From the NCBI GenBank assembly GCA_040756075.1, contig JBFLZX010000001.1:28787-92786 (forward strand): DNA of 64,000 nucleotides, given 5' to 3'. The notes beneath the pieces are model-generated. The model searched no databases. It was given only the letters and a program-made list of their open reading frames with translations, and was not told the origin of the DNA. Source of the DNA: Patescibacteria group bacterium (GTDB taxonomy: Bacteria > Patescibacteriota > JABMPQ01 > JBFLZX01). Of this stretch, positions 1 through 36,105 are shown piece by piece (the first letter of the stretch is position 1; the number at the start of each line of letters is the position of its first letter). The position numbers and the translations under genes are program-made.

Positions 1-1296
1 AATTTTTTTAATTTAGCAGTAAAACAGATTCCTAAGAAACAGTTTATCATATGGTTTGGAATTGCTGTTATATTAAGATTATTATTTTTATATATGACAA
101 TGCATGGGGATTTATTTTTTATTCATTATTATCCTACTAAATTAGGTACGCAAGGGCTTTTTGATATTTATCGGAATGGCAATATCTCAAGTTTGTATTA
201 TCCACCCTTAACTTATTTCTTTATAGGGGTTTATCAATTACTTTTAAAGCCATTTAATCCAGAGTTTTATAACTGGATACAAAATATATTTAATAGCAAT
301 GATGTAAGGGTATGGTTAGTTAATAATGGAATAAGCACAGAGTTTTTTAAGCAAATATTTTTTATGAAATTTCCTGTAGTAGTATTCGATTTCTTGTGTT
401 TTTTTATTATTTTAAGATATCTTGAAAAACCTTGTCATAAAAAAACAGCTTTAAAATTATGGAGCATTAATCCAGTTATTCTATACGGCATCTATGGATT
501 TGGGCAAATAGATATTATACCGGCGTTCTTCGCCGCATTATCTTTATTGTTAATCAAATATAAAAACGAATGGTGGGGATTTTTTTGTTTAAGCGTTGCT
601 GCTTTGTTTAAAACATTTACTATTTTTATGGTGTTGCCATTTTTAATATTATTAACTAGATCAAAAAGAGATTTATTCAAAAAATTACTCGCTTTGATTA
701 TTCCGTTTATTATTGTATTTTTGCCTTTACTTATTTCTAGCAAGGGCAGAATCCTGCGTTCAATATTTTTCGATCCGGGAGATAAATTAATTCCCTGTTT
801 AAGTTATTTGCAGAAATCGATTACCATTATATTTTTTATATTATTATATTATGTTGCTTATAAGCTAAGAGAAAAAGAAAAGAAAGACCATTGGTTATTA
901 ATGTTATCCATAGCTTCATTGATGATCCTCTATAGCGTAGCATTTATACCCGTGCATTATTTTATTTGGATTACTCCATTTCTAATTATAGCAGTTTCTG
1001 ATAATGCCTTTCCCTTAAAATTTTATTGGTTTCTTATTGTCCTTGTATTTTTGTATTGCTTGAATAGCCCAAACACAACTAGCAGGTTATTAATGCCTAT
1101 TAATCCTAAATTTTTTTATAAGTTTCCTAGCTTACCGGATTTAATGCATAAAATGCATATTAAATGGGGGGCTATTATGCTTTCAGCAAGATTGATTTTT
1201 ACGGCAAGCTGTGTATTAATTGCTTTTGAGCTTATTGGTGTAAGTTCAATCATAGAGCGTTTATTTAAAATTAAGATTGGATATAGGAAGGCATAA
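1..1296 (+). CDS. Polytopic membrane protein, putative GT-C-type glycosyltransferase (DUF2029/GT87-like). The 5' end lies outside the window.
   Basis: Frame 1 is open from nt 1 with no stop before the annotated ATG at 94, and the upstream translation (NFFNLAVKQIPKKQFIIWFGIAVILRLLFLY) is hydrophobic. The protein has many predicted TM helices and sits next to a GT2 polyprenyl-P-sugar synthase. Confidence 0.45.
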   Translation, partial: NFFNLAVKQIPKKQFIIWFGIAVILRLLFLYMTMHGDLFFIHYYPTKLGTQGLFDIYRNGNISSLYYPPLTYFFIGVYQLLLKPFNPEFYNWIQNIFNSNDVRVWLVNNGISTEFFKQIFFMKFPVVVFDFLCFFIILRYLEKPCHKKTALKLWSINPVILYGIYGFGQIDIIPAFFAALSLLLIKYKNEWWGFFCLSVAALFKTFTIFMVLPFLILLTRSKRDLFKKLLALIIPFIIVFLPLLISSKGRILRSIFFDPGDKLIPCLSYLQKSITIIFFILLYYVAYKLREKEKKDHWLLMLSIASLMILYSVAFIPVHYFIWITPFLIIAVSDNAFPLKFYWFLIVLVFLYCLNSPNTTSRLLMPINPKFFYKFPSLPDLMHKMHIKWGAIMLSARLIFTASCVLIAFELIGVSSIIERLFKIKIGYRKA

Positions 1297-2034
1297 TTGA
1301 AACTATCAGTTATAATACCAGCGCATAACGAAGAAGATTGTATTGAGAAAACTGTCTTAGACATTTCTGAAGAATTAAAAAAAGAATCTATAGATAACGA
1401 AATAATAATTGTTAATGATAACAGCACTGACAGAACCGTCTCTATAATTAATAATTTAGCTCAAGAGTATAATGATATACGGTTGATTAATAGGCAATCA
1501 CCTAATGGATTCGGCAGGGCAGTTAGAGAAGGGTTAGATAATGCAACCGGAGATGTGATTATAATTGCGATGGGTGATGCTTCAGATGACCCTAGGGATA
1601 TCGTGAAGTATTTTTATAAAATTGAAGAAGGGTATGACTGTGTTTTTGGTTCAAGGTTTATTAAGGGTGCCATGACAAGAGATTATCCATTTCATAAATT
1701 GATTGTAAACCGCATAGCAAATACTTTTTTAAGAATCCTTTTTTTAACCAAACACAATGATTTAACCAATGCTTTTAAAGCTTATCGTAGGGAAGTTATA
1801 GACGCTATTAAGCCGATAGAGTCGCTTTATTTTAATATTACCATAGAACTGCCCCTAAAAGCACTTATAAGAGGCTATTCTATTGCTTCAATGCCGACTA
1901 ATTGGTATGGCCGTAAAAGTGGTGTTTCTAAATTAAAAATTAAGGAAATGGGCAGGCGTTATCTTTATACAACACTATATCTATGGTTACAAAAGACACT
2001 TATTAGGGATGATATAAGGGATAAAAGGAAATGA
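1297..2034 (+). CDS. GT2 glycosyltransferase, DPM1/ArnC-like polyprenyl-phosphate sugar synthase
   Basis: The N-terminus SVIIPAHNEE, followed by IIVNDNSTD and a DxD-type region, matches GT-A fold dolichyl/undecaprenyl-phosphate sugar synthases. A TTG start sits right after the upstream stop. Confidence 0.7.
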   Translation: MKLSVIIPAHNEEDCIEKTVLDISEELKKESIDNEIIIVNDNSTDRTVSIINNLAQEYNDIRLINRQSPNGFGRAVREGLDNATGDVIIIAMGDASDDPRDIVKYFYKIEEGYDCVFGSRFIKGAMTRDYPFHKLIVNRIANTFLRILFLTKHNDLTNAFKAYRREVIDAIKPIESLYFNITIELPLKALIRGYSIASMPTNWYGRKSGVSKLKIKEMGRRYLYTTLYLWLQKTLIRDDIRDKRK

Positions 2035-3428
2035 ATATTATTTTGATTAGTCCTTCGCAAGGGGATGTCTATGGTAATTTCCAACCGCCTTATCATCCGT
2101 CGATAGGTTTAGGTTATATTGGGGCTGTTTTGGAGAAACAAGGCCATAATGTTAAGATAATTGATATTGATGCCGATAGAGTTACAGAAGACGATTTAAG
2201 AAAAAGAATAGTTGAGGATAAAATAGATTTAGCAGGGATTATGGTTTTAACTCCGATATTTACCAATGCCGTTAGAACCGCGCATATAATAAAAAAGTGT
2301 TCTAACGTTAAGGTTGTATTTGGGGGGATGCATCCGACTATTATGCCTCAAGATTGCTTAAAGATTAAAGATGTGGATTTTGTTGTCATTGGTGAAGGCG
2401 AGCAAACAATTTTAGAGCTAATTAATCAAATTCAGGGAGAGGGAAAATTCAAAGACGTTAAAGGCGTTGGTTTTAAGAAAGACGAAAAGATAATAATTAA
2501 TGAAAATAGACCATTAATCGAGGATTTGGATTCATTACCTTTTCCGGCAATGCGTTTATTTAATAATATAAAATATACTTACCCAGATGCAATTGCAAGC
2601 CCTACATTTCCGATTGTTACAAGTCGTGGTTGCCCTGGAACATGTACATATTGTAGTGCGCAAAGTATGTTTGGCAGGAAATTTCGGGCTCGTAGTGCGG
2701 TAAATATTGTTGATGAAATCGAAAAATTGATAAAAGATTTTGGTGTTAAAGAAGTGCATATTTGGGATGATAATTTCGTAACCATAAAAGAAAGAGTTTT
2801 AAAAGTAAGAGATGAAATTAAAAAGAGAGCTATTTTTATTAAGTTTGCATTTCCTAATGGGGTTAGGGCAGATTTTTTGGATAAAGATGTGATTGGCGCT
2901 CTCAAAGAAATGGGGACATATAGCATAGGCCTTGGTATAGAATCTGGGAATAACGAGATTTTACGGCGAGTCAAAAAAAACATTAATTTAGATAAGATTA
3001 AAGATGCTGTTAAGCTTGCGAAAAAATCAGGTATTGAGGTTTGGGGGTTTTTTATGCTTGGCCTTCCCGGTGAAACAAAAGAAACCGTCAATAATACTAT
3101 AAAATTTGCTATTGATTTAGATCCTGATATCGCAAAATTTCATATTTTAAAGCCTTATCCTGGGACGGAAGTTTTTAAAGAATTCGTAAATAATAATTTA
3201 ATTGATGATTTTGATTTTTCTCATTATGGTATCCATACAGGGCCGGTACACCATCTTAAAAATTTAGCCGTAGAGGAAATGAATTATCTTCAGCGCAGTG
3301 CTTATAAAAAATTTTATTTTAGGCCTTCAAAAATAATTAATCAAATAATAAGATTAAAATCATTCACTAGAATAAAATTAAATATAAAAGTATCGCTATC
3401 TGTTATAAGGAAAGCATTTACTAAATAA
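2031..3428 (+). CDS. B12-binding radical SAM protein (class B radical SAM, likely methyltransferase or related)
   Basis: The N-terminal roughly 150 aa are cobalamin-binding-like. The radical SAM cluster motif is RGCPGTCTYCS (CxxxCxxC). There is an ATGA overlap with the upstream gene. Confidence 0.75.
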   Translation: MNIILISPSQGDVYGNFQPPYHPSIGLGYIGAVLEKQGHNVKIIDIDADRVTEDDLRKRIVEDKIDLAGIMVLTPIFTNAVRTAHIIKKCSNVKVVFGGMHPTIMPQDCLKIKDVDFVVIGEGEQTILELINQIQGEGKFKDVKGVGFKKDEKIIINENRPLIEDLDSLPFPAMRLFNNIKYTYPDAIASPTFPIVTSRGCPGTCTYCSAQSMFGRKFRARSAVNIVDEIEKLIKDFGVKEVHIWDDNFVTIKERVLKVRDEIKKRAIFIKFAFPNGVRADFLDKDVIGALKEMGTYSIGLGIESGNNEILRRVKKNINLDKIKDAVKLAKKSGIEVWGFFMLGLPGETKETVNNTIKFAIDLDPDIAKFHILKPYPGTEVFKEFVNNNLIDDFDFSHYGIHTGPVHHLKNLAVEEMNYLQRSAYKKFYFRPSKIINQIIRLKSFTRIKLNIKVSLSVIRKAFTK

Positions 3429-3489
3429 TTATTTATTAATCCTAAACACTCAAGATGTCTCAAAATTTTTTATTCATGAATTTTAAAGA

Positions 3490-5007
3490 ATGAAGCATAC
3501 TTTGTTTACTTTATTTTTATTATCTTTTTTGCTTGGGATTATTCTGCGCATGATAAATATTAATCAACCATTGTTGGAATATAATACTACCAGGCAAGCC
3601 CAAACCGCTATGATAACTAAGAATTATATTTTAAATAAACTTCATTTTCTATATCCTACTATTTACAATTATTCCGGTGAGAATCCCACTTATCTTATGC
3701 AGGAATTCCCATTAATTACTGCCCCAGTTGCTATCGCATGCTATTTAATAGGTACAATCCCTGATTGGCTTCTTAGAATCCCTAGCTTGTTTTCATTTAT
3801 AATGGCTACATTTTTTTTATTTAAATTGGTAGAGTTATGTTGGAATCGAAAATTAGCAGTAATTTCTTCTTGTATTTTTATTTTTAGCCCTCTATCTATA
3901 TTAATGAGTAGAACATTTCAACCAGAAATGCCAATGCTATTTTTTCTATTAATGATGTTTTATTTCTTATGGAAATGGGTTTACGATGACAATATTTATA
4001 GTCTTATTTTTTCAGCATTCAGTTTTATGTGCTGCATTCTTTTGAAAGTAACGAATCTTTATTTGTTGCTGCCAATTTTATATATTATCTTATCAAATAA
4101 GAAAAAAATAGATTATCGCCTATTTAATTTTATAGTAGCATTTGTTTTAGCTTTTTTACCTGTATTATGGTGGTATGGTTATCATTGCCCAAAGATACGG
4201 CATTTGTTCCCAAACCAATACGATGTTATCTTTAATATTCACTATCAGACTATTTTTACTAAAAAATATCTAACAAATTTCAATTTTTATTTAAGGTTAA
4301 TTGTTCATATAATCAGGACAGCTTTTACTCCTTTAGTTTCCATTGCATTTATAATCGGATTATTAATTCGCCATAGGACTAATGAAGAAAAATTTTTATT
4401 TTTTTGGCTCTGCGGGGTAATTATTTTTTTATTATCTTTTCCTTCGGTAACGGACCATGAATATTATAAATTAGTAATTGTTCCAATAGGCGCCATATAC
4501 GCGGCTAGAGGCGTAAGTATCTTTTTAAATAAAAATAAAAATTATTTTAAATTAATAATAATTTATTCTAGTATACTTAGTTTTATTTTCTCGCTTAGGA
4601 TAGTTTATCCGTATCTTATAAATAAGGCTTATTTTAAAAATACCTTGCTTGCTGGAAAAGTTATAGATGAGGTTTCTTTTAAAGATGATTTGATTGTTGT
4701 TGCGCATGAATCCGGATCCGGATTGCTTTATTATTGCAATAGGAGAGGGTGGGGATTGAAAATTCCTGCGATTATTAAAAAGCGATGGGATAAAGATGCT
4801 TCTCCTAAGAATTTAGATGAACAAAACTATGAAGCTATTACTTCGTTAGAAGATTATCGGAGAAAAAATGCAAAGTATTTCGTTACCGTAGACATGGAAA
4901 AATTTAATAAAAGCCATAAATTCAGAGAATACATGTTTAAAAATTATATTTTATTAAGACATGAACCAGACAAATATATTATTTTTAAATTAGAAAACAA
5001 GAGGTAA
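3490..5007 (+). CDS. Polytopic membrane glycosyltransferase, GT-C fold (GT39/ArnT/PMT_2-like)
   Basis: About 11 TM helices with a C-terminal soluble domain. The architecture resembles 4-amino-4-deoxy-L-arabinose transferase and protein O-mannosyltransferase family members. Confidence 0.5.
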   Translation: MKHTLFTLFLLSFLLGIILRMININQPLLEYNTTRQAQTAMITKNYILNKLHFLYPTIYNYSGENPTYLMQEFPLITAPVAIACYLIGTIPDWLLRIPSLFSFIMATFFLFKLVELCWNRKLAVISSCIFIFSPLSILMSRTFQPEMPMLFFLLMMFYFLWKWVYDDNIYSLIFSAFSFMCCILLKVTNLYLLLPILYIILSNKKKIDYRLFNFIVAFVLAFLPVLWWYGYHCPKIRHLFPNQYDVIFNIHYQTIFTKKYLTNFNFYLRLIVHIIRTAFTPLVSIAFIIGLLIRHRTNEEKFLFFWLCGVIIFLLSFPSVTDHEYYKLVIVPIGAIYAARGVSIFLNKNKNYFKLIIIYSSILSFIFSLRIVYPYLINKAYFKNTLLAGKVIDEVSFKDDLIVVAHESGSGLLYYCNRRGWGLKIPAIIKKRWDKDASPKNLDEQNYEAITSLEDYRRKNAKYFVTVDMEKFNKSHKFREYMFKNYILLRHEPDKYIIFKLENKR

Positions 5008-5702: not shown

Positions 5703-5716
5703 TATTAATAATTAAA

Positions 5717-6424: not shown

Positions 6425-6467
6425 TAAATTTTTTATTACCCACAGACAGAAATTTTTAATTAATAAA

Positions 6468-9837: not shown

Positions 9838-9888
9838 TATTCTATAAAATATTAATAATTTTAATCAGCATAGTTATTAGGAGGCACA

Positions 9889-12069
9889 ATGAAAAAAGTT
9901 TTACTAACTGGTGGAGCTGGTTATTTAGGTTCTATTCTATCAAGAAAACTGATTGAGAAAGGCTATCAAGTAAAATGTTTTGATAAGATGTATTTCGGTG
10001 AAAGTTCTATTAAGCAATTAATACCCCATAAGGATTTTGAATTGATTAATGGCGATATCCAAAAATTAGATGCATATTCTAATCTTTTAGATGGTGTTAA
10101 CGCAGTTATACATTTAGCCGGCCTTGCTAATGATCCGACGGCAGAACTCGATCCCGAGCTCACTCAATTGATAAATTATAGATCATCTTATTTATTGGCT
10201 AAGATGGCTAAAGAAAGAGGGGTTGAGCGTTTTATTTATGCTTCAAGTTGTAGCGTCTACGGGAAGGGGCTGTTGGATGTTGTTAGCGAAGAGACGCCAT
10301 TAAATCCTGTATCGGTTTATGCTGAATCAAAAATGCGTGCCGAAAATGAAATTATAAAGATGGTGGATGAAAAATTTTGCCCTATATTTCTAAGACAGGC
10401 TACCCTTTATGGCGTTTCTTGGCGTATGCGTTTTGATTTAGCAATTAATTTAATGGTTTTACACGCAATTCTTAGTAAAAAAATCTTTATTTGGGGCGGT
10501 GGGACTCAGTGGAGGCCTTTTTTGCACGTTGAAGATGCCGCAGAAGCGTTTATAACTTGTTTAGAGCAACCTAGAGATAATGTTGCTGGAAAAATTTATA
10601 ATGTTGGATCTACGGAGAATAATTATAAAATAATAGATTTAGCAAAAATCGTTCAAGACAACATTAAGGGTGTTCAATTAGACATAATTCCTGACAATCC
10701 GGACAAACGCAGCTATAGAGTTTGTTGTGACAAGATTAGCAAGGAATTGAATTGGCATCCCAGGAGAACAATTGAGGATGGTATAAAGGAGCTAATCGGA
10801 TTTATTGAAAAAAATAAACAAAAAACTAATTTCGAAGATTATTATTATTATAATATTAAGACACTTCAGCGTTTCTTAAAAACACCTGTAATAGAGAATG
10901 GCGATCCGATTAGAGCAGACGAGTTACCGTTTAATAGGCCCAGCATAGGTAAAGAAGAGGAAGAAGAAGTTTTAGATACTCTTCGTTCGGGATGGTTAAC
11001 GACTGGTCCAAAAGTTAATACATTAGAAGAAATGTTTAAAAGATATATTGGAGTTAAGCATGCCGTTTGCGTTAGTTCTTGTACTGCGGCCCTACACCTT
11101 AGCTTAGCCGTTTTAGATATTAAGGATGGAGACGAAGTTATTACTTCGCCAATAACATGGCCGGCTACTGCTAATGTAATAGTTCATGTAGGGGCAACTC
11201 CAGTTTTTGCTGATGTGAATCGCCGCACTCTTAATATTGACCCCCAAGAGATCGAATCAAAAATTACAAAAAAAACGAAGGCGATTATACCGGTACATGT
11301 AGCAGGACAGCCATGTGAAATGGATAAAATCAATCAAATTGCTAAAAAATATAATCTTCATGTAATTGAAGATGCGGCACATGCCATAGGCGCTTTTTAT
11401 AATTCGCAACAAATAGGCACAATTAGTGATTTTACTTGTTTTAGTTTTTATCCGATTAAAAATATAACTACTATTGAAGGAGGGCTCGTAGTTACTAATA
11501 ATAATGAATGGGCGAAAAAATTAAGAATTTATAGTTTGCATGGAGTAACTAATGATGCATGGAATAGATATGCTACTAAATCCAAAGGAATTCATGAGGT
11601 CGTATATCCAGGATTTAAATATAATATGAGCGATATACAAGCTTCTCTTGGAATACACCAGCTGAAGAAACTCAAGACATTTATTAAACAAAGAAAAGAA
11701 ATAATAGAGCAATATAATAATAGTTTTAGTCAGATTGAAGAGATTATTTTTCCCCAACCTATTCATAATATACAACATGCAAATCATCTTTATATTATAA
11801 TATTAGATATTGATAAATTGAAGATTGACAGAGATAGGTTTATTGAAGCCTTAAAGAGCGAAAATATAGGCGTGGGCGTTCATTTTCGTTCATTGCATAT
11901 GCAGCCATACTATAGGAATAGATTTAGTTTTAAAGATGATTATTTTCCTTCAGCAAAGTATCTAAGCGATAGAATCCTTTCATTGCCTTTATACCCTGCC
12001 ATGAATCAACGCGATGTAGATACAGTTATAAAAGCCGTTATAAAACTAGTTAATTACTATAGAAAATGA
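9889..12069 (+). CDS. Bifunctional fusion of an NAD-dependent sugar-nucleotide epimerase/dehydratase (extended SDR) and a DegT/DnrJ/EryC1-family PLP aminotransferase
   Basis: N-terminus: LLTGGAGYLGS Rossmann motif and YAESK catalytic dyad. C-terminal roughly 390 aa: DegT-family pattern (SGWLTTGPKV ... CTAALHLSL ... SFYPIKNITTIEGG). A strong AGGAGG RBS lies upstream. Confidence 0.75.
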   Translation: MKKVLLTGGAGYLGSILSRKLIEKGYQVKCFDKMYFGESSIKQLIPHKDFELINGDIQKLDAYSNLLDGVNAVIHLAGLANDPTAELDPELTQLINYRSSYLLAKMAKERGVERFIYASSCSVYGKGLLDVVSEETPLNPVSVYAESKMRAENEIIKMVDEKFCPIFLRQATLYGVSWRMRFDLAINLMVLHAILSKKIFIWGGGTQWRPFLHVEDAAEAFITCLEQPRDNVAGKIYNVGSTENNYKIIDLAKIVQDNIKGVQLDIIPDNPDKRSYRVCCDKISKELNWHPRRTIEDGIKELIGFIEKNKQKTNFEDYYYYNIKTLQRFLKTPVIENGDPIRADELPFNRPSIGKEEEEEVLDTLRSGWLTTGPKVNTLEEMFKRYIGVKHAVCVSSCTAALHLSLAVLDIKDGDEVITSPITWPATANVIVHVGATPVFADVNRRTLNIDPQEIESKITKKTKAIIPVHVAGQPCEMDKINQIAKKYNLHVIEDAAHAIGAFYNSQQIGTISDFTCFSFYPIKNITTIEGGLVVTNNNEWAKKLRIYSLHGVTNDAWNRYATKSKGIHEVVYPGFKYNMSDIQASLGIHQLKKLKTFIKQRKEIIEQYNNSFSQIEEIIFPQPIHNIQHANHLYIIILDIDKLKIDRDRFIEALKSENIGVGVHFRSLHMQPYYRNRFSFKDDYFPSAKYLSDRILSLPLYPAMNQRDVDTVIKAVIKLVNYYRK

Positions 12070-13769
12070 AAAAAGACCCAAGTAAAATACTAATCTTAAT
12101 AATCATCATAGGAGCTATAGTAAGAATTTTAGGCGTAAATTTTGGGCTCCCTTTTATATATCACAATGATGAAAAGATAATTGTGAATTATGCGCTTGCT
12201 TACGGCGCAGGAGACCTGAACCCACATTTCTTTAAGATTCCGCCTTTATTGTCTTATTTTCTATTTTTTCTTTACGGGATTTTTTATATAGCGGGGAAAA
12301 TTTTAGGCATTTTTAATTCTATTAGTGAATTCGGATACCTTTTTTTAAATAATCCAACCAGTTTTTTTATTATTGGTAGATTTTTTGCTGGAGTTATTCC
12401 AGGCATTCTGTCAATTCCCCTGATATTTTATTTAGCAGAAAGAGCATTTTCAAGACGCGTTGCAATATTTGCGTCACTTTTCTTATCGCTTAATTTTTTA
12501 CACGTCAGAGATTCTCACTATATTTATTGCGATATACTCTTAGTTTTTTTTATCCTCCTATTTTTTATATGGCTTTTTAAAATTTTTGAGAAAAATCGAA
12601 CAAGCGACTATTTTGTCACTGCATTAATTATCGGTATAGCTACATCAATAAAATATAACGGAATACTATTATTTATTCCTTTTCTACTTATAATTTTACG
12701 CAATAAAGCCTTTTTTAAAGATAGCAATATAGTTTTGTTTAAAAGATTATTTGGAATAGGGTTATTTTATCCCATCGCTTTATTCTTTAGCAATCCGTAT
12801 ATGTTTCTAGATTATAAATTTTTCTTTAATGATATTTCAAGAATGCCTTTTTATAATCCCGGATTTTTTTATCACTTAAAAGTATCTATTGTTGGAGGAT
12901 GCGGCCTATTAATATTTCTTTTTTCTATAGGCGGCTTTACAATAGCCATTTTTAAGAAACATTTTTTTGCTATTACACTTGGTTTCTTTGGCTTAATTTA
13001 TTATTTTATTGTTGCTAGGCTTAGCCAATCGGCAGAGAGATATATTCTTCCACTTATTCCCGCTATATTATTATTTGCGGCATATTTTCTTGATTACATT
13101 ATTCAGAAAGTAAAAGCAGTTAAAGCGCAATTAATTCTCTCTGTTTTATTTTGTATAATATTACTTACACCTTCTTTGTTTAAAATATATAAATCTGATA
13201 AGCTTTTTACTATGGATGATACGCGTACACAAGCTTATGAATGGATTAAGAAAAACATTCCATTTAATACTAAGATCGCTGTCGATTCAACCGGGTCAAT
13301 ATACCCAGTATTAAGACAATCAAAGGAATTTATTGATATCAATGTAAAAAATTTCAAAAAAGAAAAATTTCGGAAACCAGAAGGTTCTTTAGATTATAAA
13401 ATAGAACTTATAAAAAATAATCCTTATTATGATAATACTTATAGGATTTATTATTTAAAAAAAAGCATAGGCCAAAAAGGATTCTTTTTATCATTCCCTG
13501 AAGTAGAGTTAAATATAGATCAAATCAAGACTAAAGGGATTGAATATATAGTTGTTTCGACTTTACTTATTAGCAATACCGGAAAAAAATTTTTACCAGT
13601 ACTAGAAAAAAATACTAATTTAATTAAAGAATTCTCTCCATATAATAAATCTATTTCTAAATTAATTCCTGATGAGCTTACTGTTTTACCTGCTGCAGCT
13701 TTTACATACCGAGAGTTAAAGGATAGAGACAGGTTTGGTCCAGTAATTAGAATCTATAAGTTTAAGTAG
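12066..13769 (+). CDS. Polytopic membrane glycosyltransferase, GT-C fold (GT39/PMT_2, ArnT-like)
   Basis: Multi-TM protein. A DE-type motif in the first extracytoplasmic loop (HNDEKII) is typical of the ArnT/PMT family. There is a C-terminal soluble domain. Confidence 0.6.
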   Translation: MKKDPSKILILIIIIGAIVRILGVNFGLPFIYHNDEKIIVNYALAYGAGDLNPHFFKIPPLLSYFLFFLYGIFYIAGKILGIFNSISEFGYLFLNNPTSFFIIGRFFAGVIPGILSIPLIFYLAERAFSRRVAIFASLFLSLNFLHVRDSHYIYCDILLVFFILLFFIWLFKIFEKNRTSDYFVTALIIGIATSIKYNGILLFIPFLLIILRNKAFFKDSNIVLFKRLFGIGLFYPIALFFSNPYMFLDYKFFFNDISRMPFYNPGFFYHLKVSIVGGCGLLIFLFSIGGFTIAIFKKHFFAITLGFFGLIYYFIVARLSQSAERYILPLIPAILLFAAYFLDYIIQKVKAVKAQLILSVLFCIILLTPSLFKIYKSDKLFTMDDTRTQAYEWIKKNIPFNTKIAVDSTGSIYPVLRQSKEFIDINVKNFKKEKFRKPEGSLDYKIELIKNNPYYDNTYRIYYLKKSIGQKGFFLSFPEVELNIDQIKTKGIEYIVVSTLLISNTGKKFLPVLEKNTNLIKEFSPYNKSISKLIPDELTVLPAAAFTYRELKDRDRFGPVIRIYKFK

Positions 13770-13782
13770 AAGATATTTGTAA

Positions 13783-14553
13783 ATGTATATTTCCGTAGTT
13801 ATTCCAATATATAATGAAGAGGGCAGCATAAATACTCTTTATAATAGGCTGAGTAGGGTCATGGAAGGCATTCATCTTGAATACGAGATAATTTTTATTG
13901 ACGATGGCTCAAATGATGACTCTTTGAAATTAATAAGATCTATTATAAATAATGATAATAAAGTAAAGGCGATCTCTTTTGATAAAAATTATGGGCAACA
14001 TCCAGCGGTAATAGCTGGTTTTGAAAAAGCGCAAGGTAAATTTATAGTTACGCTTGATGCAGATTTACAGAATCCCCCGGAAGAAATTCCCAAGCTCATT
14101 GATGCGATAAATGACGGATATGATATGGTAAGCGGAATTAGGGTATTGAGAAAGGATAATAATTTTAGACAGTTATCTTCAGCTTGTTCAAATATATTTT
14201 TAAATTTACTGACAAGAAGCCATATCAATGATTACGGAACTATGCTGCGTGTTTTTAAAAAAGAATTTGCAAAAAAGATGAGCATTCATTATAGAAGAAA
14301 TAGGCTTTATATACCAGTATTAATTAATACCCTTACTAATAACATTCTAGAAATTGAGTTAAGCCATGAAAATCGTTTTGCCGGTGAATCAAAATATGCA
14401 TTTTTTAAATTGATAAAGACATTTATTTCTATAGTTATACGGTATCATCGAGGTTTTACAGCATTCCTTAAATTTTTTCATATAATAAAAGAGGACGATG
14501 TGCTTTATAGAGTTAAAGAGCAAATAGAAATACAAAAAAGTAGACATATATAA
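13783..14553 (+). CDS. GT2 glycosyltransferase, ArnC/GtrB-like polyprenyl-phosphate sugar synthase
   Basis: SVVIPIYNEEGSI, IIFIDDGSNDDS and DADLQNPPEEIPKL motifs match ArnC/GtrB. Confidence 0.75.
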   Translation: MYISVVIPIYNEEGSINTLYNRLSRVMEGIHLEYEIIFIDDGSNDDSLKLIRSIINNDNKVKAISFDKNYGQHPAVIAGFEKAQGKFIVTLDADLQNPPEEIPKLIDAINDGYDMVSGIRVLRKDNNFRQLSSACSNIFLNLLTRSHINDYGTMLRVFKKEFAKKMSIHYRRNRLYIPVLINTLTNNILEIELSHENRFAGESKYAFFKLIKTFISIVIRYHRGFTAFLKFFHIIKEDDVLYRVKEQIEIQKSRHI

Positions 14554-14555
14554 AT

Positions 14556-15323
14556 ATGCATAAAAAAACACAATCTACAAAAATAGTTTTGAAAAAAAAT
14601 AAATGGGATAGTTTATTTTTTGGCATAGATATCGCAGACATGTTTTTTCATGGATTTAATTTGCCATCGGAATCAGAAATAAAATTATTATTAGATAGAG
14701 CGTTAAAAAAAGCCTATAATTTTGGTTTTAAATATTTAGTTTTCACGCTTCCCGAAAAATTTATTTTTTTAAGCAGTATCCTTAAGAAACAAGGTTTTAA
14801 GCTTATAGATTTATGTTTTGATTTAAAGTTAGTTATTAATAAAAAGATACCTTTCAAAATATCGTCCGATATCAATATTATTAAAACCTGTATTAGCGAT
14901 ATTCCTTTCATTGAGAGGATAGCGAGTTATTCTTTTAGATTGAGCAGGTTTTATAATCTTAAATTTTCGAATAAAAAATTATCCGACCTTTACCATATTA
15001 TTTGGATTAGAAATTTACTTAAGAGTAGACGGGCTATTTTATTTACGGCTAAATTAGAAGATAGAGTGTGTGGTTTTCTTGCGCTTACATTAAATCGTCA
15101 AGATTGTTCCGGAAGGATAAGCCTTATTGCTACCAAAAAAGATATGCAGGGTATGGGGGTCGGAAATGCATTAGTTTATTATGCTATTAATTGGGCTAGA
15201 AAAAAAAGATTTAAAACGATATATGTAAAAACACAGAAGAATAATCTTAAAGCGCTAAAATTATATAAAAAACATAATTTTAAGATTTTTAATGTAGAAC
15301 GCAAGTATTCTCTTTATTTATGA
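14556..15323 (+). CDS. GNAT-family N-acetyltransferase (WecD-like amino-sugar acetyltransferase architecture)
   Basis: The C-terminus carries a GNAT motif A (MQGMGVGNALVYYAINWARKK). The two-domain layout resembles TDP-fucosamine acetyltransferase. Confidence 0.6.
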   Translation: MHKKTQSTKIVLKKNKWDSLFFGIDIADMFFHGFNLPSESEIKLLLDRALKKAYNFGFKYLVFTLPEKFIFLSSILKKQGFKLIDLCFDLKLVINKKIPFKISSDINIIKTCISDIPFIERIASYSFRLSRFYNLKFSNKKLSDLYHIIWIRNLLKSRRAILFTAKLEDRVCGFLALTLNRQDCSGRISLIATKKDMQGMGVGNALVYYAINWARKKRFKTIYVKTQKNNLKALKLYKKHNFKIFNVERKYSLYL

Positions 15324-16993
15324 TAATGAAAAAATTGATTTTAATATCTTTTTTTATTTTATTTACTATTTTATGTATAGGGACCATTCTTCAAACTTCT
15401 CCTATATGCGATGAAGTCGCGCATCATTTAGCCAGCGGATATTCCTATTTAAAGACAAAAGATTTCAGGATGAATCCAGCCACACCTGCATTTTCAAGGG
15501 AATTAATTGCTGCGTCGCTTTTAGTCCTTAATTTAAGGTTGCCAACGGATCATCCTTCTTGGATTAATAATGATAGCCCTATATTTGGAAGGCTTTTTTT
15601 ATATGAATACAATGATAATCCTGAAAGAATAGTTTTGTTGGCCCGTTTGTCTGTTATGCTTCAATCTATTATTCTTGCATTTTTGGTTTACGTTTGGGCC
15701 AGAAAGGTACACGGTGTAAACGCTGCCGTATTTTCCGTTTTTCTATACTTGTTTTCTCCTGCAATCATAGGAAATTCTACTATAGCTATGGCAGATATCT
15801 CTGTAAGCCTTTTTATATTCTTAACGATTTTTCAGTTTTGGCTTTTTTTACAAAAGAAAACTATAGCTGGCTTAATTTTTACAGGAATATTTTTTGGATT
15901 AGCACAGTCTTCTAAGCATACTGCAATAATACTATTTCCGCTTTTTATTATTTTAGGAATAGTCTATGCTATGAATTCAAGTAATAACAAGGGAGATATG
16001 TTATGGGATATGTGGAAAAAAATAGTTTTAATATGGGGGATTGGTTTTTTTACGTTATGGGCAACTTATTTTTTTGAATTCAAGCCATTGCTTTTAAATG
16101 TTAGTGATATAAACGAAAAAGTAGTATATATTCAGAGATTCTTATCATCGATACCTTTTTTAGACCATAAATATATTATAGATAAAGTAATTTATTTTGC
16201 TAAAAATGTTCCTATTCCGCTGAGCTCTTTTTTTATTTCATTATTTGGAGTATTACATCAATCAAGTATTGGGCAAGGCGTATTCTTTATGGGAGAGCAT
16301 ACTATCAGCGGATCAAGGATTTATTATATCGTCGATTATTTAATAAAGACTCCTATACCACTTTTAATTTTTATTATTCTTTCGATCTTTTTAACACTAT
16401 TTAAGAGGCTATTTAAAACAAAAATCTTAACAAATTGGTTTATTATTTTGCCGATATTTCTTATTTTTGTCGCGTCATCATATTCAAAAATCCAAGGAGG
16501 AATAAGATATCTTTTGCCGATATATCCTTTTCTATTTGTATGGCTAGGAAATATCATAACCGTTAAATTCAACCCATTTAGAAATTTATTTTATAAAATC
16601 ATTATTTTAATAATATGTTTATGGTATTTTTGGATTGCATTAAAGACATTTCCGGATTATCTATGTTATTTTAATGAAGCTGTAGGTGGATTAAATGGCT
16701 TCGGTCATAAAATAACACATGATTGTGATTGGGGGCAAGATCTTAAAGCGCTTGGTAAATTTTATAAAAAAAATGATCTTAATGAAATTACGCTTTCCTA
16801 TTTTGGTACGGCAGACCCATCTTTTTACGGAATTAATTATAAAGAGTTATCTAAGGAAGAGCAAGACGTACCGGGAAAGAAAGTTTATGCGATAAGCATA
16901 CGTTTTCTTGATTCTGCGAAATGGACAAGAAATATTCCGCCATCTGCAAAAGCAGGCCATTCTATATTCATTTATGACTTTAGAGTTAATTGA
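15320..16993 (+). CDS. Polytopic membrane glycosyltransferase, GT-C fold (GT39/PMT_2, ArnT-like)
   Basis: DE motif near the N-terminus (ICDEVAHHLASGYSY). Multiple TM helices and a C-terminal soluble domain. Confidence 0.65.
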   Translation: MIMKKLILISFFILFTILCIGTILQTSPICDEVAHHLASGYSYLKTKDFRMNPATPAFSRELIAASLLVLNLRLPTDHPSWINNDSPIFGRLFLYEYNDNPERIVLLARLSVMLQSIILAFLVYVWARKVHGVNAAVFSVFLYLFSPAIIGNSTIAMADISVSLFIFLTIFQFWLFLQKKTIAGLIFTGIFFGLAQSSKHTAIILFPLFIILGIVYAMNSSNNKGDMLWDMWKKIVLIWGIGFFTLWATYFFEFKPLLLNVSDINEKVVYIQRFLSSIPFLDHKYIIDKVIYFAKNVPIPLSSFFISLFGVLHQSSIGQGVFFMGEHTISGSRIYYIVDYLIKTPIPLLIFIILSIFLTLFKRLFKTKILTNWFIILPIFLIFVASSYSKIQGGIRYLLPIYPFLFVWLGNIITVKFNPFRNLFYKIIILIICLWYFWIALKTFPDYLCYFNEAVGGLNGFGHKITHDCDWGQDLKALGKFYKKNDLNEITLSYFGTADPSFYGINYKELSKEEQDVPGKKVYAISIRFLDSAKWTRNIPPSAKAGHSIFIYDFRVN

Positions 16994-20421: not shown

Positions 20422-20422
20422 T

Positions 20423-36098: not shown

Positions 36099-36105
36099 TT
36101 TTGTT

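What the first reader, a model, noticed from the sequence alone, without database searches (positions are those of the whole stretch)
1..16993. Repeated Gtr-like three-component modules: four GT2 polyprenyl-P-sugar synthases and six GT-C membrane transferases
DPM1/ArnC/CsbB-like GT2 genes lie at 1297, 5717, 13783 and 46741. They are interleaved with GT-C fold membrane proteins at 1, 3490, 6468, 12066, 15320 and 55064, together with a flippase-like protein at 54130. This is the pattern of extracytoplasmic glycosylation from lipid-linked monosaccharides, as in GtrABC, ArnC/ArnT, CsbB/YfhO and PMT. Several independent modules side by side suggest several different sugars being added outside the membrane to a common acceptor.
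Basis: partly seen in the sequence, partly recalled or inferred. Interest (0 to 1): 0.65.

Follow-up and report, generated by a model that had tools for sequence, protein, structure and literature searches.

The report
Dense cluster of periplasmic sugar-adding enzymes
The first 17 kb of this window, from an uncultivated bacterium most likely of the phylum Omnitrophota, hold three enzymes predicted to load sugars onto a membrane lipid carrier and five membrane enzymes predicted to transfer those sugars onto an unidentified cell-surface acceptor; all belong to known enzyme families, and the sugars, the acceptor and the activities are unknown.

Summary

- **GT2 enzymes.** The four GT2 proteins (1297, 5717, 13783, 46741) match polyprenyl-phosphate sugar synthases best (ArnC, GtrB, archaeal DPMS), not processive synthases.
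- **GT-C enzymes.** The six membrane proteins are polytopic and pass Pfam thresholds for PMT_2/PMT, YfhO or GT87. AlphaFold models of two of them (12066, 6468) match only GT-C enzymes in the PDB. Five keep an acidic residue in the first outer loop.
- **Flippase-like gene.** 54130 carries the MprF-type flippase-like domain.

The interpretation needs correction in four respects.
- There is no GtrA gene.
- The three synthases in 1-16993 lack the C-terminal membrane helices of GtrB and ArnC.
- The ratio there is three synthases to five GT-C enzymes, not 1:1.
- The genes are old, divergent paralogues, not repeats.

In 85 related loci, a 5717-like GT2 most often lies directly upstream of the 12066-type GT-C. 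The YfhO-like and 15320-type GT-C genes often follow it. The window's close relatives add an Arn-like 4-acetamido-sugar branch. The named relatives are all Omnitrophota.

Verdict: new members of a known kind of extracytoplasmic glycosylation system. The acceptor is unknown and interest is modest.

The parts
1..1296 (+). GT-C candidate, GT87/DUF2029-like. The N-terminus is cut by the window edge.
   Evidence: Pfam GT87 scores 26.9 bits against a cut-off of 25. It has 9 hydrophobic segments. The H-x-D motif just after TM1 is kept in the one homologue found, in L030. There is no profile similarity to the PMT_2-type family. This is the weakest of the six.
1297..2034 (+). GT2 polyprenyl-P sugar synthase-like protein, 245 aa, without TM helices.
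   Evidence: Glycos_transf_2 scores 109.9 bits. The best PDB match is P. furiosus DPMS 5mlz (E 3.9e-25), followed by GtrB and ArnC. The best NCBIfam matches are PgfS, dolichyl-P hexose transferase and AglJ. It has no TM helix. Its start abuts the stop of the upstream GT-C. Homologues abut GT-C genes in L007, L031, L042 and L062.
2031..3428 (+). B12-binding radical SAM enzyme (class B, HpnJ/BchE-like); possible sugar C-methylase (inferred).
   Evidence: Pfam B12-binding plus Radical_SAM. NCBIfam HpnJ scores 223 bits, below its cut-off. Its start overlaps the stop of the GT2 by 4 bases. B12-rSAM genes also sit among GT2 and GT-C genes in L004, L007, L016 and L017.
3490..5007 (+). GT-C, PMT_2 family (GT39-like), 505 aa.
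   Evidence: PMT_2 scores 47.1 bits. It has 10 hydrophobic segments. hhalign against the 12066 family gives 76% probability. E30 directly after TM1 is conserved in at least 90% of 21 homologues; Q36, N45 and E72 are invariant. A homologue exists in Ca. Omnitrophus magneticus.
5007..5702 (+). Class I SAM-dependent methyltransferase.
   Evidence: Methyltransf_25, _31, _12 and _11.
5717..6424 (+). GT2 polyprenyl-P sugar synthase-like protein, 235 aa, without TM helices. It is the type of GT2 that most often lies directly upstream of the 12066-type GT-C in related loci.
   Evidence: Glycos_transf_2 scores 97.4 bits. The best PDB matches are DPMS 5mlz (E 4.5e-20), then ArnC and GtrB. In the related loci, D93-A94-D95 is conserved in at least 95% of 60 sequences, and 52 of 59 homologues lack a TM helix. 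A homologue lies directly upstream of the 12066-type GT-C in 30 of 62 loci that have enough upstream flank.
6468..8732 (+). GT-C, YfhO family, 754 aa, with a C-terminal beta-sandwich domain and a final TM helix.
   Evidence: Pfam YfhO scores 42.8 bits on the C-terminal part only, and 18 of 26 orthologues hit YfhO. The AF2 model has pLDDT 92.6. Its top PDB matches are STT3, ArnT (TM-score 0.54, normalised by the target), AftD, AftA, EmbC and DPY19. D36 is invariant in 26 orthologues and present in at least 90% of 48. The NCBI name is 'YfhO family protein'.
8713..9837 (+). SGNH/GDSL hydrolase or acyltransferase with one N-terminal TM anchor. The catalytic domain is predicted to lie outside the membrane (inferred).
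   Evidence: Lipase_GDSL_2 scores 42.4 bits. The LA_2486 family gives a weak hit. There is one TM segment at residues 5-38. An orthologue lies in the same block in L002.
9889..12069 (+). Fusion of an SDR nucleotide-sugar dehydrogenase and an ArnB/PseC-like aminotransferase. It is predicted to make an NDP-4-amino-4-deoxy sugar.
   Evidence: Epimerase scores 159 bits and DegT_DnrJ_EryC1 scores 441 bits. NCBIfam ArnB scores 427.7 bits (cut-off 631) and PseC scores 392 bits. The SDR domain's best PDB match is 6vo6 (E 2.1e-47), not ArnA. The fusion is conserved in L002, L003, L004 and L087. The two halves are separate genes in L006.
12066..13769 (+). GT-C, PMT_2/PMT family (GT39/GT83-like), 567 aa.
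   Evidence: PMT_2 scores 51.5 bits and PMT scores 37.6 bits. A profile of 51 homologues hits yeast Pmt1 (E 1.5e-6) and ArnT 5ezm (E 9e-5). The AF2 model has pLDDT 91.4, and all 45 matches with Foldseek probability of at least 0.75 are GT-C enzymes. H33, D35 and E36 in the first loop are invariant.
13783..14553 (+). ArnC-like GT2, 256 aa, lacking ArnC's C-terminal TM helices.
   Evidence: The PDB match to ArnC 9hwj has E 1.8e-50, aligning residues 3-218 with 10-225 of 322, with an identical 'LDADLQNPPEEIP' stretch. NCBIfam ArnC scores 205.6 bits against a cut-off of 529. It has no TM helix.
14556..15323 (+). WecD/RffC-like GNAT N-acetyltransferase for an NDP-4-amino sugar.
   Evidence: Acetyltransf_1 scores 60.5 bits. 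NCBIfam dTDP-4-amino-4,6-dideoxygalactose acyltransferase scores 92 bits over nearly the full length. It follows the ArnC-like GT2 in L002-L005 and L087.
15320..16993 (+). GT-C, PMT_2/PMT family, 557 aa.
   Evidence: PMT_2 scores 38.3 bits and PMT scores 34.2 bits. hhalign against the 12066 family gives 95% probability. D31 and E32 are conserved in at least 95% of 23 sequences. It has 9 hydrophobic segments.
36070..37608 (+). Wzx-like (MOP family) polytopic protein; one candidate flippase.
   Evidence: Polysacc_synt_3 scores 46.9 bits and Polysacc_synt scores 40.5 bits. It has 10 hydrophobic segments. Wzx- and MATE-type flippases serve such systems in S. pyogenes and C. youngae (PMC8035078, PMC11127046).
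46741..47682 (+). AglJ/ArnC-like GT2, 313 aa, with two C-terminal TM helices (the classical GtrB/ArnC layout).
   Evidence: Glycos_transf_2 scores 84.3 bits. NCBIfam AglJ scores 114 bits over the full length. The PDB match to ArnC aligns residues 2-293 with 9-296. TM segments lie at 230-251 and 263-295.
54130..55071 (+). MprF-type flippase-like membrane protein.
   Evidence: LPG_synthase_TM scores 86.1 bits against a cut-off of 33.4. TIGR00374 'flippase-like domain' scores 39 bits, below its cut-off of 43.2. It has 6 hydrophobic segments.
55064..56632 (+). GT-C candidate (PMT-like, LA_3751/LA_3752 family).
   Evidence: PMT scores 24.6 bits against a cut-off of 22.7. NCBIfam LA_3751/LA_3752 putative glycosyltransferase scores 64 bits against a cut-off of 200. 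hhalign against the 12066 family gives 56% probability. It has 12 hydrophobic segments. Conservation of the first-loop Asp (G-D30-G) was not tested.

Best explanation
Bases 1-16993 encode a multi-enzyme system for glycosylation outside the cytoplasmic membrane, using sugars carried on polyprenyl (undecaprenyl) phosphate.

**Predicted steps.**
1. Three cytoplasmic GT2 enzymes without TM helices, of the DPM1/GtrB/ArnC clade (1297, 5717, 13783), each transfer one sugar from a nucleotide sugar to the lipid phosphate at the inner face of the membrane.
2. The lipid-linked sugars are flipped by a protein encoded elsewhere. Candidates in the window are the Wzx-like gene at 36070 and the MprF-like gene at 54130.
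3. Five GT-C enzymes (1, 3490, 6468, 12066, 15320), each with a conserved acidic residue in the first outer loop, transfer the sugars onto an envelope acceptor.

**The amino-sugar branch.** One donor branch can be read in more detail. The SDR-aminotransferase fusion (9889) makes an NDP-4-amino-4-deoxy sugar. The WecD-like GNAT (14556) N-acetylates it. The ArnC-like GT2 (13783) loads it onto the lipid. This resembles the Arn pathway, with acetyl in place of formyl.

**Tailoring enzymes.** The interleaved genes probably tailor the sugars: a B12-radical SAM enzyme, a SAM methyltransferase and a membrane-anchored SGNH protein.

**Stoichiometry.** The genes are not 1:1 repeats. In related genomes a 5717-like GT2 most often lies directly upstream of the 12066-type GT-C, and the YfhO-like and 15320-type GT-C genes often follow. 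One donor therefore probably serves several transferases, at different sites or linkages.

**What is shown and what is inferred.** Family and fold membership, conserved motifs and synteny are shown. Donor sugars, the flippase, the acceptor and all activities are inferred.
For: - **GT2 proteins.** Their best PDB matches are ArnC, GtrB and DPMS. Processive synthases give only weak N-terminal hits. Their NCBIfam top hits are all polyprenyl-P sugar synthases. The DxD motif is kept.
- **GT-C proteins.** They pass Pfam thresholds. The 12066 profile hits Pmt1 and ArnT. AF2 models of 12066 and 6468 (pLDDT 91.4 and 92.6) match only GT-C enzymes in the significant range. First-loop acidic residues are conserved.
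- **Synteny.** Among 34 related loci with at least 5 kb on both sides of the 12066-type gene, 31 have a DPM1-like GT2 within 5 kb, 19 have a YfhO-like GT-C and 12 have a 15320-type GT-C. The immediate upstream neighbour is a 5717-like GT2 in 30 of 62 loci, and the immediate downstream neighbour is the YfhO-like gene in 22 of 69. The same seven-gene set as in the window recurs in L003, L004 and L087, where the 12066-type protein is 40-41% identical to the window's.
- **Gene junctions.** Several genes abut or overlap by a few bases, at 1296/1297, 2031-2034, 5007, 12066-12069 and 15320-15323, which is consistent with co-expression.
- **Amino-sugar branch.** ArnB-like, 427.7 bits; WecD-like, 92 bits; ArnC-like, E 1.8e-50.
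- **Precedents.** TM-less synthases, unlinked or Wzx-type flippases, and one synthase serving two GT-C enzymes are all known (PMC8035078; PMC11127046).
Against: - No biochemical data exist, and the organism is uncultivated.
- No flippase gene lies within 1-16993, and no GtrA or ArnE/F homologue lies anywhere in the window.
- The three TM-less GT2 proteins have no identified membrane partner of the GacJ kind.
- All NCBIfam equivalog cut-offs are missed. ArnC scores 205.6 against 529 and ArnB scores 427.7 against 631. None is therefore an orthologue of a characterised enzyme.
- The GT87-like protein at 1-1296 has weak support. Conservation of the first-loop Asp in 55064 was not tested.
- GT2_1297 has D-A-S where the others have D-x-D.
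- No initiating phosphoglycosyltransferase, Wzy or ligase is in the window, so nothing identifies the acceptor.
Confidence: 0.75

Rival explanations
1. Several independent Gtr-like modules, each with one synthase, one flippase and one GT-C, add different single sugars as side-branch decorations to one common, already polymerised acceptor such as an O-antigen or capsule.
For: - Three divergent GT2 proteins (25-31% identical) sit next to different tailoring enzymes, which suggests different donor sugars.
- Wzy_C, Bac_transf and WecG genes lie next to the block in L003 and L087. A Wzy-type polymer may therefore be the acceptor in relatives.
Against: - There is no GtrA.
- The ratio is three GT2 to five GT-C genes.
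- In many related loci the GT-C genes lie in a run headed by a single adjacent GT2.
- The GT2 proteins here lack GtrB's TM helices.
- The window has no polymerase or initiating transferase.
Confidence: 0.3
2. The amino-sugar part (9889-16993) is an Arn/Lgm/Flm-type system that modifies lipid A or the LPS core. It adds a 4-amino sugar, after removal of its acetyl group, to phosphate or core residues to change surface charge.
For: - It has ArnB-like, ArnC-like and ArnT-like proteins.
- The named relatives are Omnitrophota. That phylum is diderm (general knowledge).
- A weak LptD_2 hit and a UDP-glucose dehydrogenase lie near the block in L088.
- A Polysacc_deac_1 gene lies at 59260.
Against: - The SDR domain is not ArnA-like. 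Its best match is 6vo6, and ArnA scores only 44 bits on a fragment.
- A WecD-like acetyltransferase replaces the formyltransferase.
- No deacylase lies next to the module.
- There are two to three GT-C genes per donor rather than one.
- Lipid A synthesis genes were not seen, because the rest of the genome was not available.
Confidence: 0.2
3. The PMT_2-type GT-C enzymes O-glycosylate surface proteins such as pili or giant adhesin-like proteins, as protein O-mannosyltransferases do in actinobacteria and eukaryotes.
For: - The best PDB sequence match of the 12066 profile is yeast Pmt1.
- The DE motif in the first loop is the PMT hallmark.
- Omnitrophota encode many giant surface proteins and pili (bioRxiv 10.64898/2026.06.07.730766).
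Against: - There is no MIR domain.
- PMT_2 is also the family of many polysaccharide-modifying GT-C enzymes such as GacL, GtlB and CsdD (PMC8035078).
- No candidate protein acceptor is encoded nearby.
Confidence: 0.12
4. The GT-C enzymes polymerise, rather than decorate, an envelope glycan outside the membrane from polyprenyl-P-monosaccharide donors, as the Emb and Aft enzymes do with decaprenyl-P-arabinose in mycobacteria.
For: - A GT2 followed by up to three different GT-C genes recurs in many related loci.
- The 6468 model matches AftD, AftA and EmbC among its best hits and has a C-terminal beta-sandwich domain that could bind carbohydrate.
- The window has no Wzy or ABC-transporter polymer pathway.
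Against: - STT3 and ArnT match as well as or better than the Emb and Aft enzymes.
- Nothing shows processivity.
- Relatives carry Wzy_C next to the block.
Confidence: 0.15

Closest known systems
ArnB/ArnC/ArnT pathway (undecaprenyl-P-L-Ara4N modification of lipid A), with its N-acetyl analogues LgmABC (Bordetella) and FlmF2/NaxD/FlmK (Francisella). The analogues are recalled from general knowledge.
   Same: - An ArnB-like aminotransferase, 427.7 bits.
- An ArnC-like GT2, E 1.8e-50, with an identical DADLQNPPEEIP motif.
- ArnT/PMT-like GT-C enzymes with a first-loop Asp.
- An N-acylated amino sugar loaded on the lipid carrier.
   Different: - There is no ArnA: the SDR is 6vo6-like, and there is no formyltransferase.
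- A WecD-like acetyltransferase takes the formyltransferase's place.
- No ArnD-type deacylase is adjacent, and there is no ArnE/F.
- The GT2 lacks ArnC's TM helices.
- Two GT-C genes flank one GT2.
- All equivalog cut-offs are missed.
Multi-component transmembrane glycosylation systems of Gram-positive bacteria: CsbB/GtcA/YfhO, GtlA/GtlB, GacI-GacJ/GacK/GacL and CsdAB-CD-EF/CflA (PMC8035078).
   Same: - A GT-A synthase paired with a PMT_2- or YfhO-type GT-C.
- Several pairs per genome.
- The flippase is often unlinked and shared.
- A TM-less synthase is known (GacI).
- One synthase (GttA) serves two GT-C enzymes.
   Different: - The host here is a predicted diderm of Omnitrophota, with no teichoic acids.
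- No GtrA/GtcA or GacJ-like gene is in the window.
- Five GT-C and three GT2 genes are packed into 17 kb.
GtrABC O-antigen glucosylation (Shigella and Salmonella phages), and the pentofuranose three-component systems of Citrobacter (GT136, PMC11127046).
   Same: A lipid-linked monosaccharide donor, flipping, and transfer by a GT-C enzyme after polymerisation.
   Different: - There is no GtrA or MATE gene next to the pairs.
- The synthases lack GtrB's TM helices.
- The system is not phage-borne.
- The stoichiometry is not 1:1:1.
Mycobacterial and corynebacterial arabinan and mannan assembly (DPA or PPM donors with EmbA/B/C, AftA-D, PimE).
   Same: - One lipid-linked monosaccharide donor used by several different GT-C enzymes.
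- A TM-less polyprenyl-P sugar synthase is known (Ppm1, PpgS).
- A GT87-like member is present.
- There are structural matches to AftA, AftB, AftD, Emb and PimE.
   Different: - There is no sequence-level membership of the Emb or Aft families.
- There is no decaprenyl-P-ribose pathway.
- Polymerising activity is not shown.

Membership tests
GT2 polyprenyl-phosphate sugar synthase clade (DPM1/DPMS, GtrB, ArnC, CsbB, PpgS) | GT-A catalytic domain (Glycos_transf_2) with a DxD metal-binding motif | tested here: met
   Pfam scores are 84-114 bits. DAD is present in 13783, identical to ArnC. DAD is conserved in at least 95% of 60 sequences of the 5717 family. DGD is present in 46741. In 1297 only the first Asp is kept (D94-A-S).
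GT2 polyprenyl-phosphate sugar synthase clade (DPM1/DPMS, GtrB, ArnC, CsbB, PpgS) | Closest characterised relatives are polyprenyl-P sugar synthases rather than processive or oligosaccharide-acting GT2 enzymes | tested here: met
   The top PDB hits for all four are ArnC, GtrB or DPMS, with E values from 1e-13 to 1e-50. The alignments extend through the interface-helix region (to about residue 220). Chondroitin and heparosan synthases reach at best E 3e-10, on the N-terminal part only. The NCBIfam top hits are PgfS, dolichyl-P hexose transferase, AglJ, ArnC and PpgS.
GT2 polyprenyl-phosphate sugar synthase clade (DPM1/DPMS, GtrB, ArnC, CsbB, PpgS) | C-terminal transmembrane helices (GtrB/ArnC/CsbB subtype) | tested here: not met
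   1297, 5717 and 13783 have no hydrophobic segment. Only 46741 has two. TM-less members of the clade are known: GacI (PMC8035078), and human DPM1 and PpgS (general knowledge). This excludes the subtype, not the clade.
GT2 polyprenyl-phosphate sugar synthase clade (DPM1/DPMS, GtrB, ArnC, CsbB, PpgS) | Transfer of a sugar from a nucleotide sugar to polyprenyl phosphate | not testable with these tools
   This needs an enzyme assay.
ArnC proper (NCBIfam NF007986 equivalog) | Score above the curated equivalog cut-off of 529 bits | tested here: not met
   13783 scores 205.6 bits over model positions 8-223 of 316. It is ArnC-like but not an ArnC orthologue.
GT-C superfamily, PMT_2/PMT type (GT39/GT83-like) | Profile match above the Pfam gathering score | tested here: met
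   3490 scores 47.1 bits, 12066 scores 51.5 and 15320 scores 38.3, against a cut-off of 26.1. 55064 scores 24.6 for PMT against 22.7. The profile of 51 homologues of 12066 hits Pmt1 at E 1.5e-6 and ArnT at E 9e-5.
GT-C superfamily, PMT_2/PMT type (GT39/GT83-like) | Polytopic membrane protein with the GT-C fold | tested here: met
   Each has 9-12 hydrophobic segments. The AF2 model of 12066 (pLDDT 91.4) matches STT3, AglB, PglB, ALG9, ALG12, ArnT, Pmt4, AftA, AftB, Emb and PimE. No non-GT-C protein reaches a Foldseek probability of 0.75. The other PMT_2-type proteins were not modelled. hhalign against the 12066 family gives 95% for 15320, 76% for 3490 and 56% for 55064.
GT-C superfamily, PMT_2/PMT type (GT39/GT83-like) | Conserved acidic residue (DE motif) in the first extracytoplasmic loop | tested here: met
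   12066 has H33-x-D35-E36, invariant in 51 sequences. 15320 has D31-E32 in at least 95% of 23 sequences. 3490 has a single E30 in at least 90% of 21 sequences, so not a DE pair. For 55064 an Asp (G-D30-G) is present but its conservation was not tested.
YfhO family (PF09586) | Profile match above the gathering score, with the GT-C fold in the membrane part | tested here: met
   It scores 42.8 bits against 28.5, but only on model positions 752-834. 18 of 26 orthologues match, the best at E 3.9e-23. The AF2 model (pLDDT 92.6) matches STT3, ArnT, AftD, AftA, EmbC and DPY19. D36 in the first loop is conserved.
GT87 / DUF2029 (PimE-like GT-C) | Profile match, with a conserved Asp in the first loop | tested here: inconclusive
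   It scores 26.9 bits against a cut-off of 25, on 90 residues. The ORF is truncated by the window edge. Only one homologue is available, and it keeps the H-x-D motif. There is no profile link to the PMT_2 family.
GtrABC-type three-component system | A GtrA-family (PF04138) small flippase gene within the module | tested here: not met
   None of the 55 + strand ORFs or the 10 - strand ORFs of at least 100 aa hits GtrA. The window is 98.6% coding, and the largest gap is 189 bp.
GtrABC-type three-component system | One synthase paired with one GT-C | tested here: not met
   The interval 1-16993 has three GT2 and five GT-C genes. Relatives often have one adjacent GT2 with two or three GT-C genes.
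Arn pathway (ArnA, B, C, D, T, E/F) | ArnA (UDP-GlcA C4 oxidative decarboxylase plus formyltransferase), ArnD deformylase and ArnE/F flippase | tested here: not met
   The SDR's best match is 6vo6. ArnA scores only 44 bits, on a 77-residue fragment. There is no formyltransferase domain. A GNAT is present instead. The only Polysacc_deac_1 gene is at 59260, about 42 kb from the module. There is no SMR-type gene.
MprF-type flippase-like domain (LPG_synthase_TM / TIGR00374) | Profile match | tested here: met
   Pfam scores 86.1 bits against 33.4. TIGR00374 scores 39 bits, below its cut-off of 43.2. Flipping of polyprenyl-P-sugars by this family is not established, and it cannot be tested here.

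The most novel reading that the evidence does not exclude
Omnitrophota may carry a widely shared envelope-glycan machine built around one TM-less polyprenyl-P (amino)sugar synthase and three different GT-C enzymes (12066-type, YfhO-like and 15320-type). On this reading the machine assembles, rather than merely decorates, a major surface polymer outside the cytoplasmic membrane. That would be a diderm counterpart of mycobacterial arabinan assembly. In this lineage the product would be further elaborated by B12-radical-SAM methylation, acetylation and sulfation.
Probability: 0.12. Interest if true: 0.7.

Novelty: new member of a known kind. Interest (0 to 1): 0.35.

Why it matters
Omnitrophota are widespread, mostly uncultivated and partly host-dependent bacteria, and their surface chemistry is unknown.

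This analysis shows that a block of lipid-carrier sugar synthase and GT-C transferase genes recurs in many related genomes, whose named members are all Omnitrophota. The window holds more of these genes than any of the 34 related loci read at about 21 kb: five GT-C and three synthase genes in 17 kb, inside a 64 kb glycan island. The block gives concrete gene targets for finding out what these cells display on their surface.

It also adds sequence-diverse, confidently modelled members to the YfhO and PMT_2 branches of the GT-C superfamily.

It does not reveal a new mechanism.

Tried and rejected
- **Exact look-up of window proteins.** The products of 9889, 26202 and 13783, and P0001, gave nothing on record. 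The window's own contig could not be fetched.
- **Scan of species-representative genomes.** Using the 9889 fusion found only a Methanobrevibacter aminotransferase at 36% identity.
- **Single-sequence PDB searches.** GT-C proteins 12066, 15320 and 3490 found nothing. Only the profile worked.
- **hhalign.** The 12066 family against the YfhO-like family gave 3% probability, and against GTC_1 gave 0.4%. No sequence-level link exists. Support for 6468 comes from its model, and for 1-1296 only from the weak Pfam hit.
- **Structure prediction from loci-derived orthologues.** I redid it with database homologues.
- **First alignment of the 3490 family.** A small alignment of five locus sequences suggested that the first-loop acid was missing. 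A 21-sequence alignment showed this was a misalignment, and E30 is conserved.
- **Promoter and terminator scan of 1-20000.** Counts equalled those of the shuffles (118 against 118.9, and 8 against 8.4). It gave no operon boundaries.
- **GT2 at 56638 as a possible partner of GT-C 55064.** It has no PDB hit, and its NCBIfam hits are not to polyprenyl-P synthases. I did not count it as a lipid-sugar synthase.
- **Permease or chance explanations for the GT-C candidates.** I rejected these on the Pfam matches and, for 12066 and 6468, the fold matches.
- **Recent tandem duplication.** I rejected this on the 25-31% identity between the GT2 paralogues.

Full report
**What is in the window**

The window has about 31% G+C. 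It carries 55 ORFs of 100 aa or more on the + strand and no tRNA gene. It is 98.6% coding, and the largest gap between genes is 189 bp. Pfam assigns nearly every gene to sugar or glycan metabolism. The whole 64 kb is therefore one glycan-biosynthesis island, and the flagged interval 1-16993 is its membrane-enzyme-rich left end.

**Origin**

NCBI proteins 100% identical to the products of 3490, 6468 and 12066 sit on a 110 kb contig labelled 'MAG: Patescibacteria group bacterium'. Every other homologue for which a source names a phylum (28-42% identity) is from Candidatus Omnitrophota/Omnitrophica, except one partial Planctomycetes protein. One of them is from Ca. Omnitrophus magneticus. Gene order is also shared with those contigs. 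I therefore treat the organism as most likely an Omnitrophota member. The window's own contig could not be retrieved.

**Check of the observation: GT2 genes**

- The ORFs at 1297, 5717 (ATG inside the 5666 ORF), 13783 and 46741 all carry Glycos_transf_2, at 84-114 bits.
- Against NCBIfam, their best hits are PgfS, dolichyl-phosphate hexose transferase, AglJ, ArnC and PpgS. All of these are polyprenyl-phosphate sugar synthases. All the scores fall below the equivalog cut-offs.
- Against PDB sequences, the best hits of all four are ArnC, GtrB (sll0501) and Pyrococcus DPMS. The alignments run through the catalytic domain and the interface-helix region.
- 13783 matches ArnC at E 1.8e-50, with an identical LDADLQNPPEEIP stretch.
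- Processive enzymes (chondroitin and heparosan synthases) reach at best E 3e-10, on the N-terminal part only.
- A fifth GT2, at 56638, is not of this clade.

**Check of the observation: GT-C genes**

- The six candidates pass Pfam gathering scores:
  - PMT_2: 47.1 bits (3490), 51.5 (12066) and 38.3 (15320).
  - YfhO: 42.8 bits (6468, C-terminal part only).
  - PMT: 24.6 bits (55064), plus the LA_3751/LA_3752 family at 64 bits against a cut-off of 200.
  - GT87: 26.9 bits (1-1296, an ORF cut by the window edge).
- Each has 9-12 hydrophobic segments. The only other polytopic proteins in the window are a Wzx-like protein (36070) and the MprF-type flippase-like protein (54130).
- Single sequences found nothing in the PDB. 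A profile of 51 homologues of 12066 hit yeast Pmt1 (E 1.5e-6) and ArnT (E 9e-5).
- An AlphaFold model of 12066 (pLDDT 91.4) matched STT3, AglB, PglB, ALG9, ALG12, ArnT, Pmt4, AftA, AftB, Emb and PimE. All 45 matches with Foldseek probability of at least 0.75 were GT-C enzymes.
- A model of the YfhO-like 6468 (pLDDT 92.6) matched STT3, ArnT, AftD, AftA, EmbC and DPY19. It shows a C-terminal beta-sandwich domain followed by a last TM helix. 18 of 26 orthologues hit Pfam YfhO.
  - H33-x-D35-E36, invariant in 51 sequences (12066).
  - D31-E32 in at least 95% of 23 sequences (15320).
  - D36, invariant in 26 sequences and present in at least 90% of 48 (6468).
  - A single E30 in at least 90% of 21 sequences (3490).
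- For 1-1296 an H-x-D motif is shared with the one homologue found. For 55064 the Asp is present but its conservation was not tested.
The GT87-like protein is its weakest member.

1. No gene in the window hits GtrA or an SMR-type ArnE/F, and there is no room for an unannotated one. This does not contradict lipid-linked glycosylation. In the characterised Gram-positive systems the flippase is often unlinked and shared, or of the Wzx type. In Citrobacter it is a MATE protein (PMC8035078; PMC11127046).
2. The three GT2 proteins in 1-16993 have no TM helices, whereas 46741 has the classical two. TM-less synthases are known, for example GacI, which works with the small membrane protein GacJ (PMC8035078). 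No GacJ-like gene is present here.
3. The genes are not repeats. The GT2 proteins are 25-31% identical to one another, and the GT-C proteins are barely alignable.
4. The ratio in the interval is three GT2 to five GT-C genes.

**Comparative evidence**

I collected 85 related loci that carry an orthologue of 12066 and mapped homologues of the window proteins onto them.

- In loci with enough flank, the gene directly upstream of the 12066 type is a 5717-like GT2 in 30 of 62.
- The gene directly downstream is the YfhO-like GT-C in 22 of 69.
- Among 34 loci with at least 5 kb on both sides, 31 have a DPM1-like GT2 within 5 kb, 19 have a YfhO-like GT-C and 12 have a 15320-type GT-C.
- The recurrent order is: several SDR genes, sometimes an aminotransferase, the GT2, the 12066-type GT-C, the YfhO-like GT-C, then the 15320-type GT-C.
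- The 5717-type GT2 family keeps D-A-D, and 52 of 59 members lack a TM helix.
- In the window's closer relatives L003, L004 and L087, the 12066-type protein is 40-41% identical to the window's. These loci hold the same seven-gene set as the window, in a slightly different order: the 5717-type GT2, the SDR-aminotransferase fusion, the 12066-type GT-C, an ArnC-like GT2, a GNAT, the 15320-type GT-C and the YfhO-like GT-C. L002 (55% identity), whose upstream side is cut by the contig end, keeps the run from the fusion to the 15320-type GT-C.
- Ca. Omnitrophus magneticus has a minimal version: SDR, aminotransferase, GT2, GT-C.
- The window has more of these genes than any of the 34 related loci read at about 21 kb. 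Those loci have a median of two GT-C genes and a maximum of four.

**Most likely mechanism**

- Shown: family and fold membership, motifs, and synteny.
- Inferred: each TM-less GT2 makes a polyprenyl-P-monosaccharide at the inner leaflet. A flippase moves it across; it is either encoded elsewhere or is the Wzx-like or MprF-like protein of the window. The GT-C enzymes then transfer the sugar to an envelope acceptor.
- Because GT-C genes outnumber synthase genes, in the window and in many relatives, donors are probably shared by GT-C enzymes with different sites or linkages. Listeria GttA feeds both GtlB and GttB in this way (PMC8035078).
- One branch can be read further:
  - The SDR half of the 9889 fusion is closest to PDB 6vo6 (E 2.1e-47). 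I recall this as the C4 dehydrogenase Cj1427, from memory and not checked.
  - It is not closest to ArnA or to 4,6-dehydratases.
  - The aminotransferase half is ArnB/PseC-like.
  - The GNAT is WecD-like over its full length.
  - The predicted product is an NDP-4-acetamido-4-deoxy sugar that the ArnC-like GT2 loads on the carrier.
- The B12-radical SAM enzyme (2031), the SAM methyltransferase (5007) and the membrane-anchored SGNH protein (8713) probably tailor the sugars. Their substrates are unknown.

**Acceptor**

Nothing in the window identifies the acceptor.

- Relatives carry Wzy_C, Bac_transf and WecG genes next to the block.
- One relative carries a weak LptD_2 hit and a UDP-glucose dehydrogenase nearby.
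- Candidates are an O-antigen-like polymer, LPS core or lipid A, a surface protein, or a polymer built by the GT-C enzymes themselves. I rank them as rival explanations.

**Comparison with known systems, and novelty**

- The system works like the ArnC/ArnT, CsbB/YfhO, GacI/GacL and mycobacterial PPM/DPA systems.
- It is not a member of the Gtr or Arn systems in the strict sense. GtrA, ArnA, ArnD and ArnE/F are absent, and the equivalog cut-offs are missed.
- NCBI already names these proteins 'glycosyltransferase family 39' and 'YfhO family'.
- The new elements are:
  - the recurrent GT2-plus-GT-C block across related genomes, whose named members are all Omnitrophota;
  - the TM-less ArnC-like enzyme coupled to a WecD-like acetyltransferase and an SDR-aminotransferase fusion;
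  - the density of the cluster.
- I rate this as new members of a known kind, of modest interest (0.35).
- The most novel reading still open is that the GT-C enzymes assemble, rather than decorate, a major envelope polymer. I give it a probability of about 0.12.

Noticed in passing
window 17165-21385: A cytoplasmic protein with no TM helix fuses a sulfatase-family domain to an APS kinase. It is followed by an ATP sulfurylase and a protein consisting only of the pyruvate-kinase barrel domain. The fusion and the sulfurylase lie in the same position after the GT-C block in L002. This suggests PAPS synthesis for sulfated glycans. The role of a cytoplasmic sulfatase-fold domain is unexplained.
   Followed up: partly
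window 2031-3428, 24716-26185, 28057-29508, 39973-41478, 49428-50879: Five B12-binding (class B) radical SAM genes lie in one glycan island. They are 23-31% identical to one another. Similar genes lie among GT2 and GT-C genes in L004, L007, L016 and L017. They may C-methylate sugars, but their substrates are unknown.
   Followed up: partly
window 52015-54130: A full-length RtcB RNA ligase homologue (281 bits) lies between glycosyltransferase genes. It is followed by a thymidylate-kinase-like P-loop protein. This is an odd location for an RNA-repair enzyme.
   Followed up: no
window 21574-39968: This region looks like a nonulosonic-acid (pseudaminic or legionaminic acid-like) pathway. It includes a CBS-SDR protein, an FdtA-like cupin, a DegT aminotransferase, NeuB, three CTP_transf_3 cytidylyltransferases, WbqC, PIG-L, GNAT, an HpcH aldolase and a Wzx-like protein. 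Part of it (HTH_17, SDR, DegT, aldo-keto reductase, CTP_transf_3, and in L003 a B12-rSAM gene) is syntenic downstream of the GT-C block in L003, L004 and L087.
   Followed up: partly
whole window; proteins P0001, P0121, P0196: NCBI labels the source contig 'Patescibacteria group bacterium'. Every other homologue for which a source names a phylum is Omnitrophota/Omnitrophica, except one partial Planctomycetes protein. The bin label may be wrong.
   Followed up: partly
window 54130-57585: A flippase-like gene, a GT-C gene and a GT2 gene lie directly adjacent, with overlapping or near-abutting ends. This looks like a three-gene module. However, this GT2 (56638) is not of the polyprenyl-P synthase clade and has no PDB relative.
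   Followed up: partly
window 61231-62787: A hexapeptide-repeat acyltransferase domain is fused to a domain with weak GH88, pectate-lyase and squalene-cyclase-type (alpha/alpha barrel) hits.
   Followed up: no
window 1-64000: All 55 large ORFs are on one strand. GC skew is positive in every 2 kb bin, so cumulative skew rises monotonically. Many stop and start codons overlap.
   Followed up: no
window 44595-45953 and 57566-60267: A TagF-like CDP-glycerol glycerophosphotransferase domain protein, a carbamoyltransferase and a polysaccharide deacetylase are also present. These hint at glycerol-phosphate and carbamoyl substituents on the same glycan.
   Followed up: no
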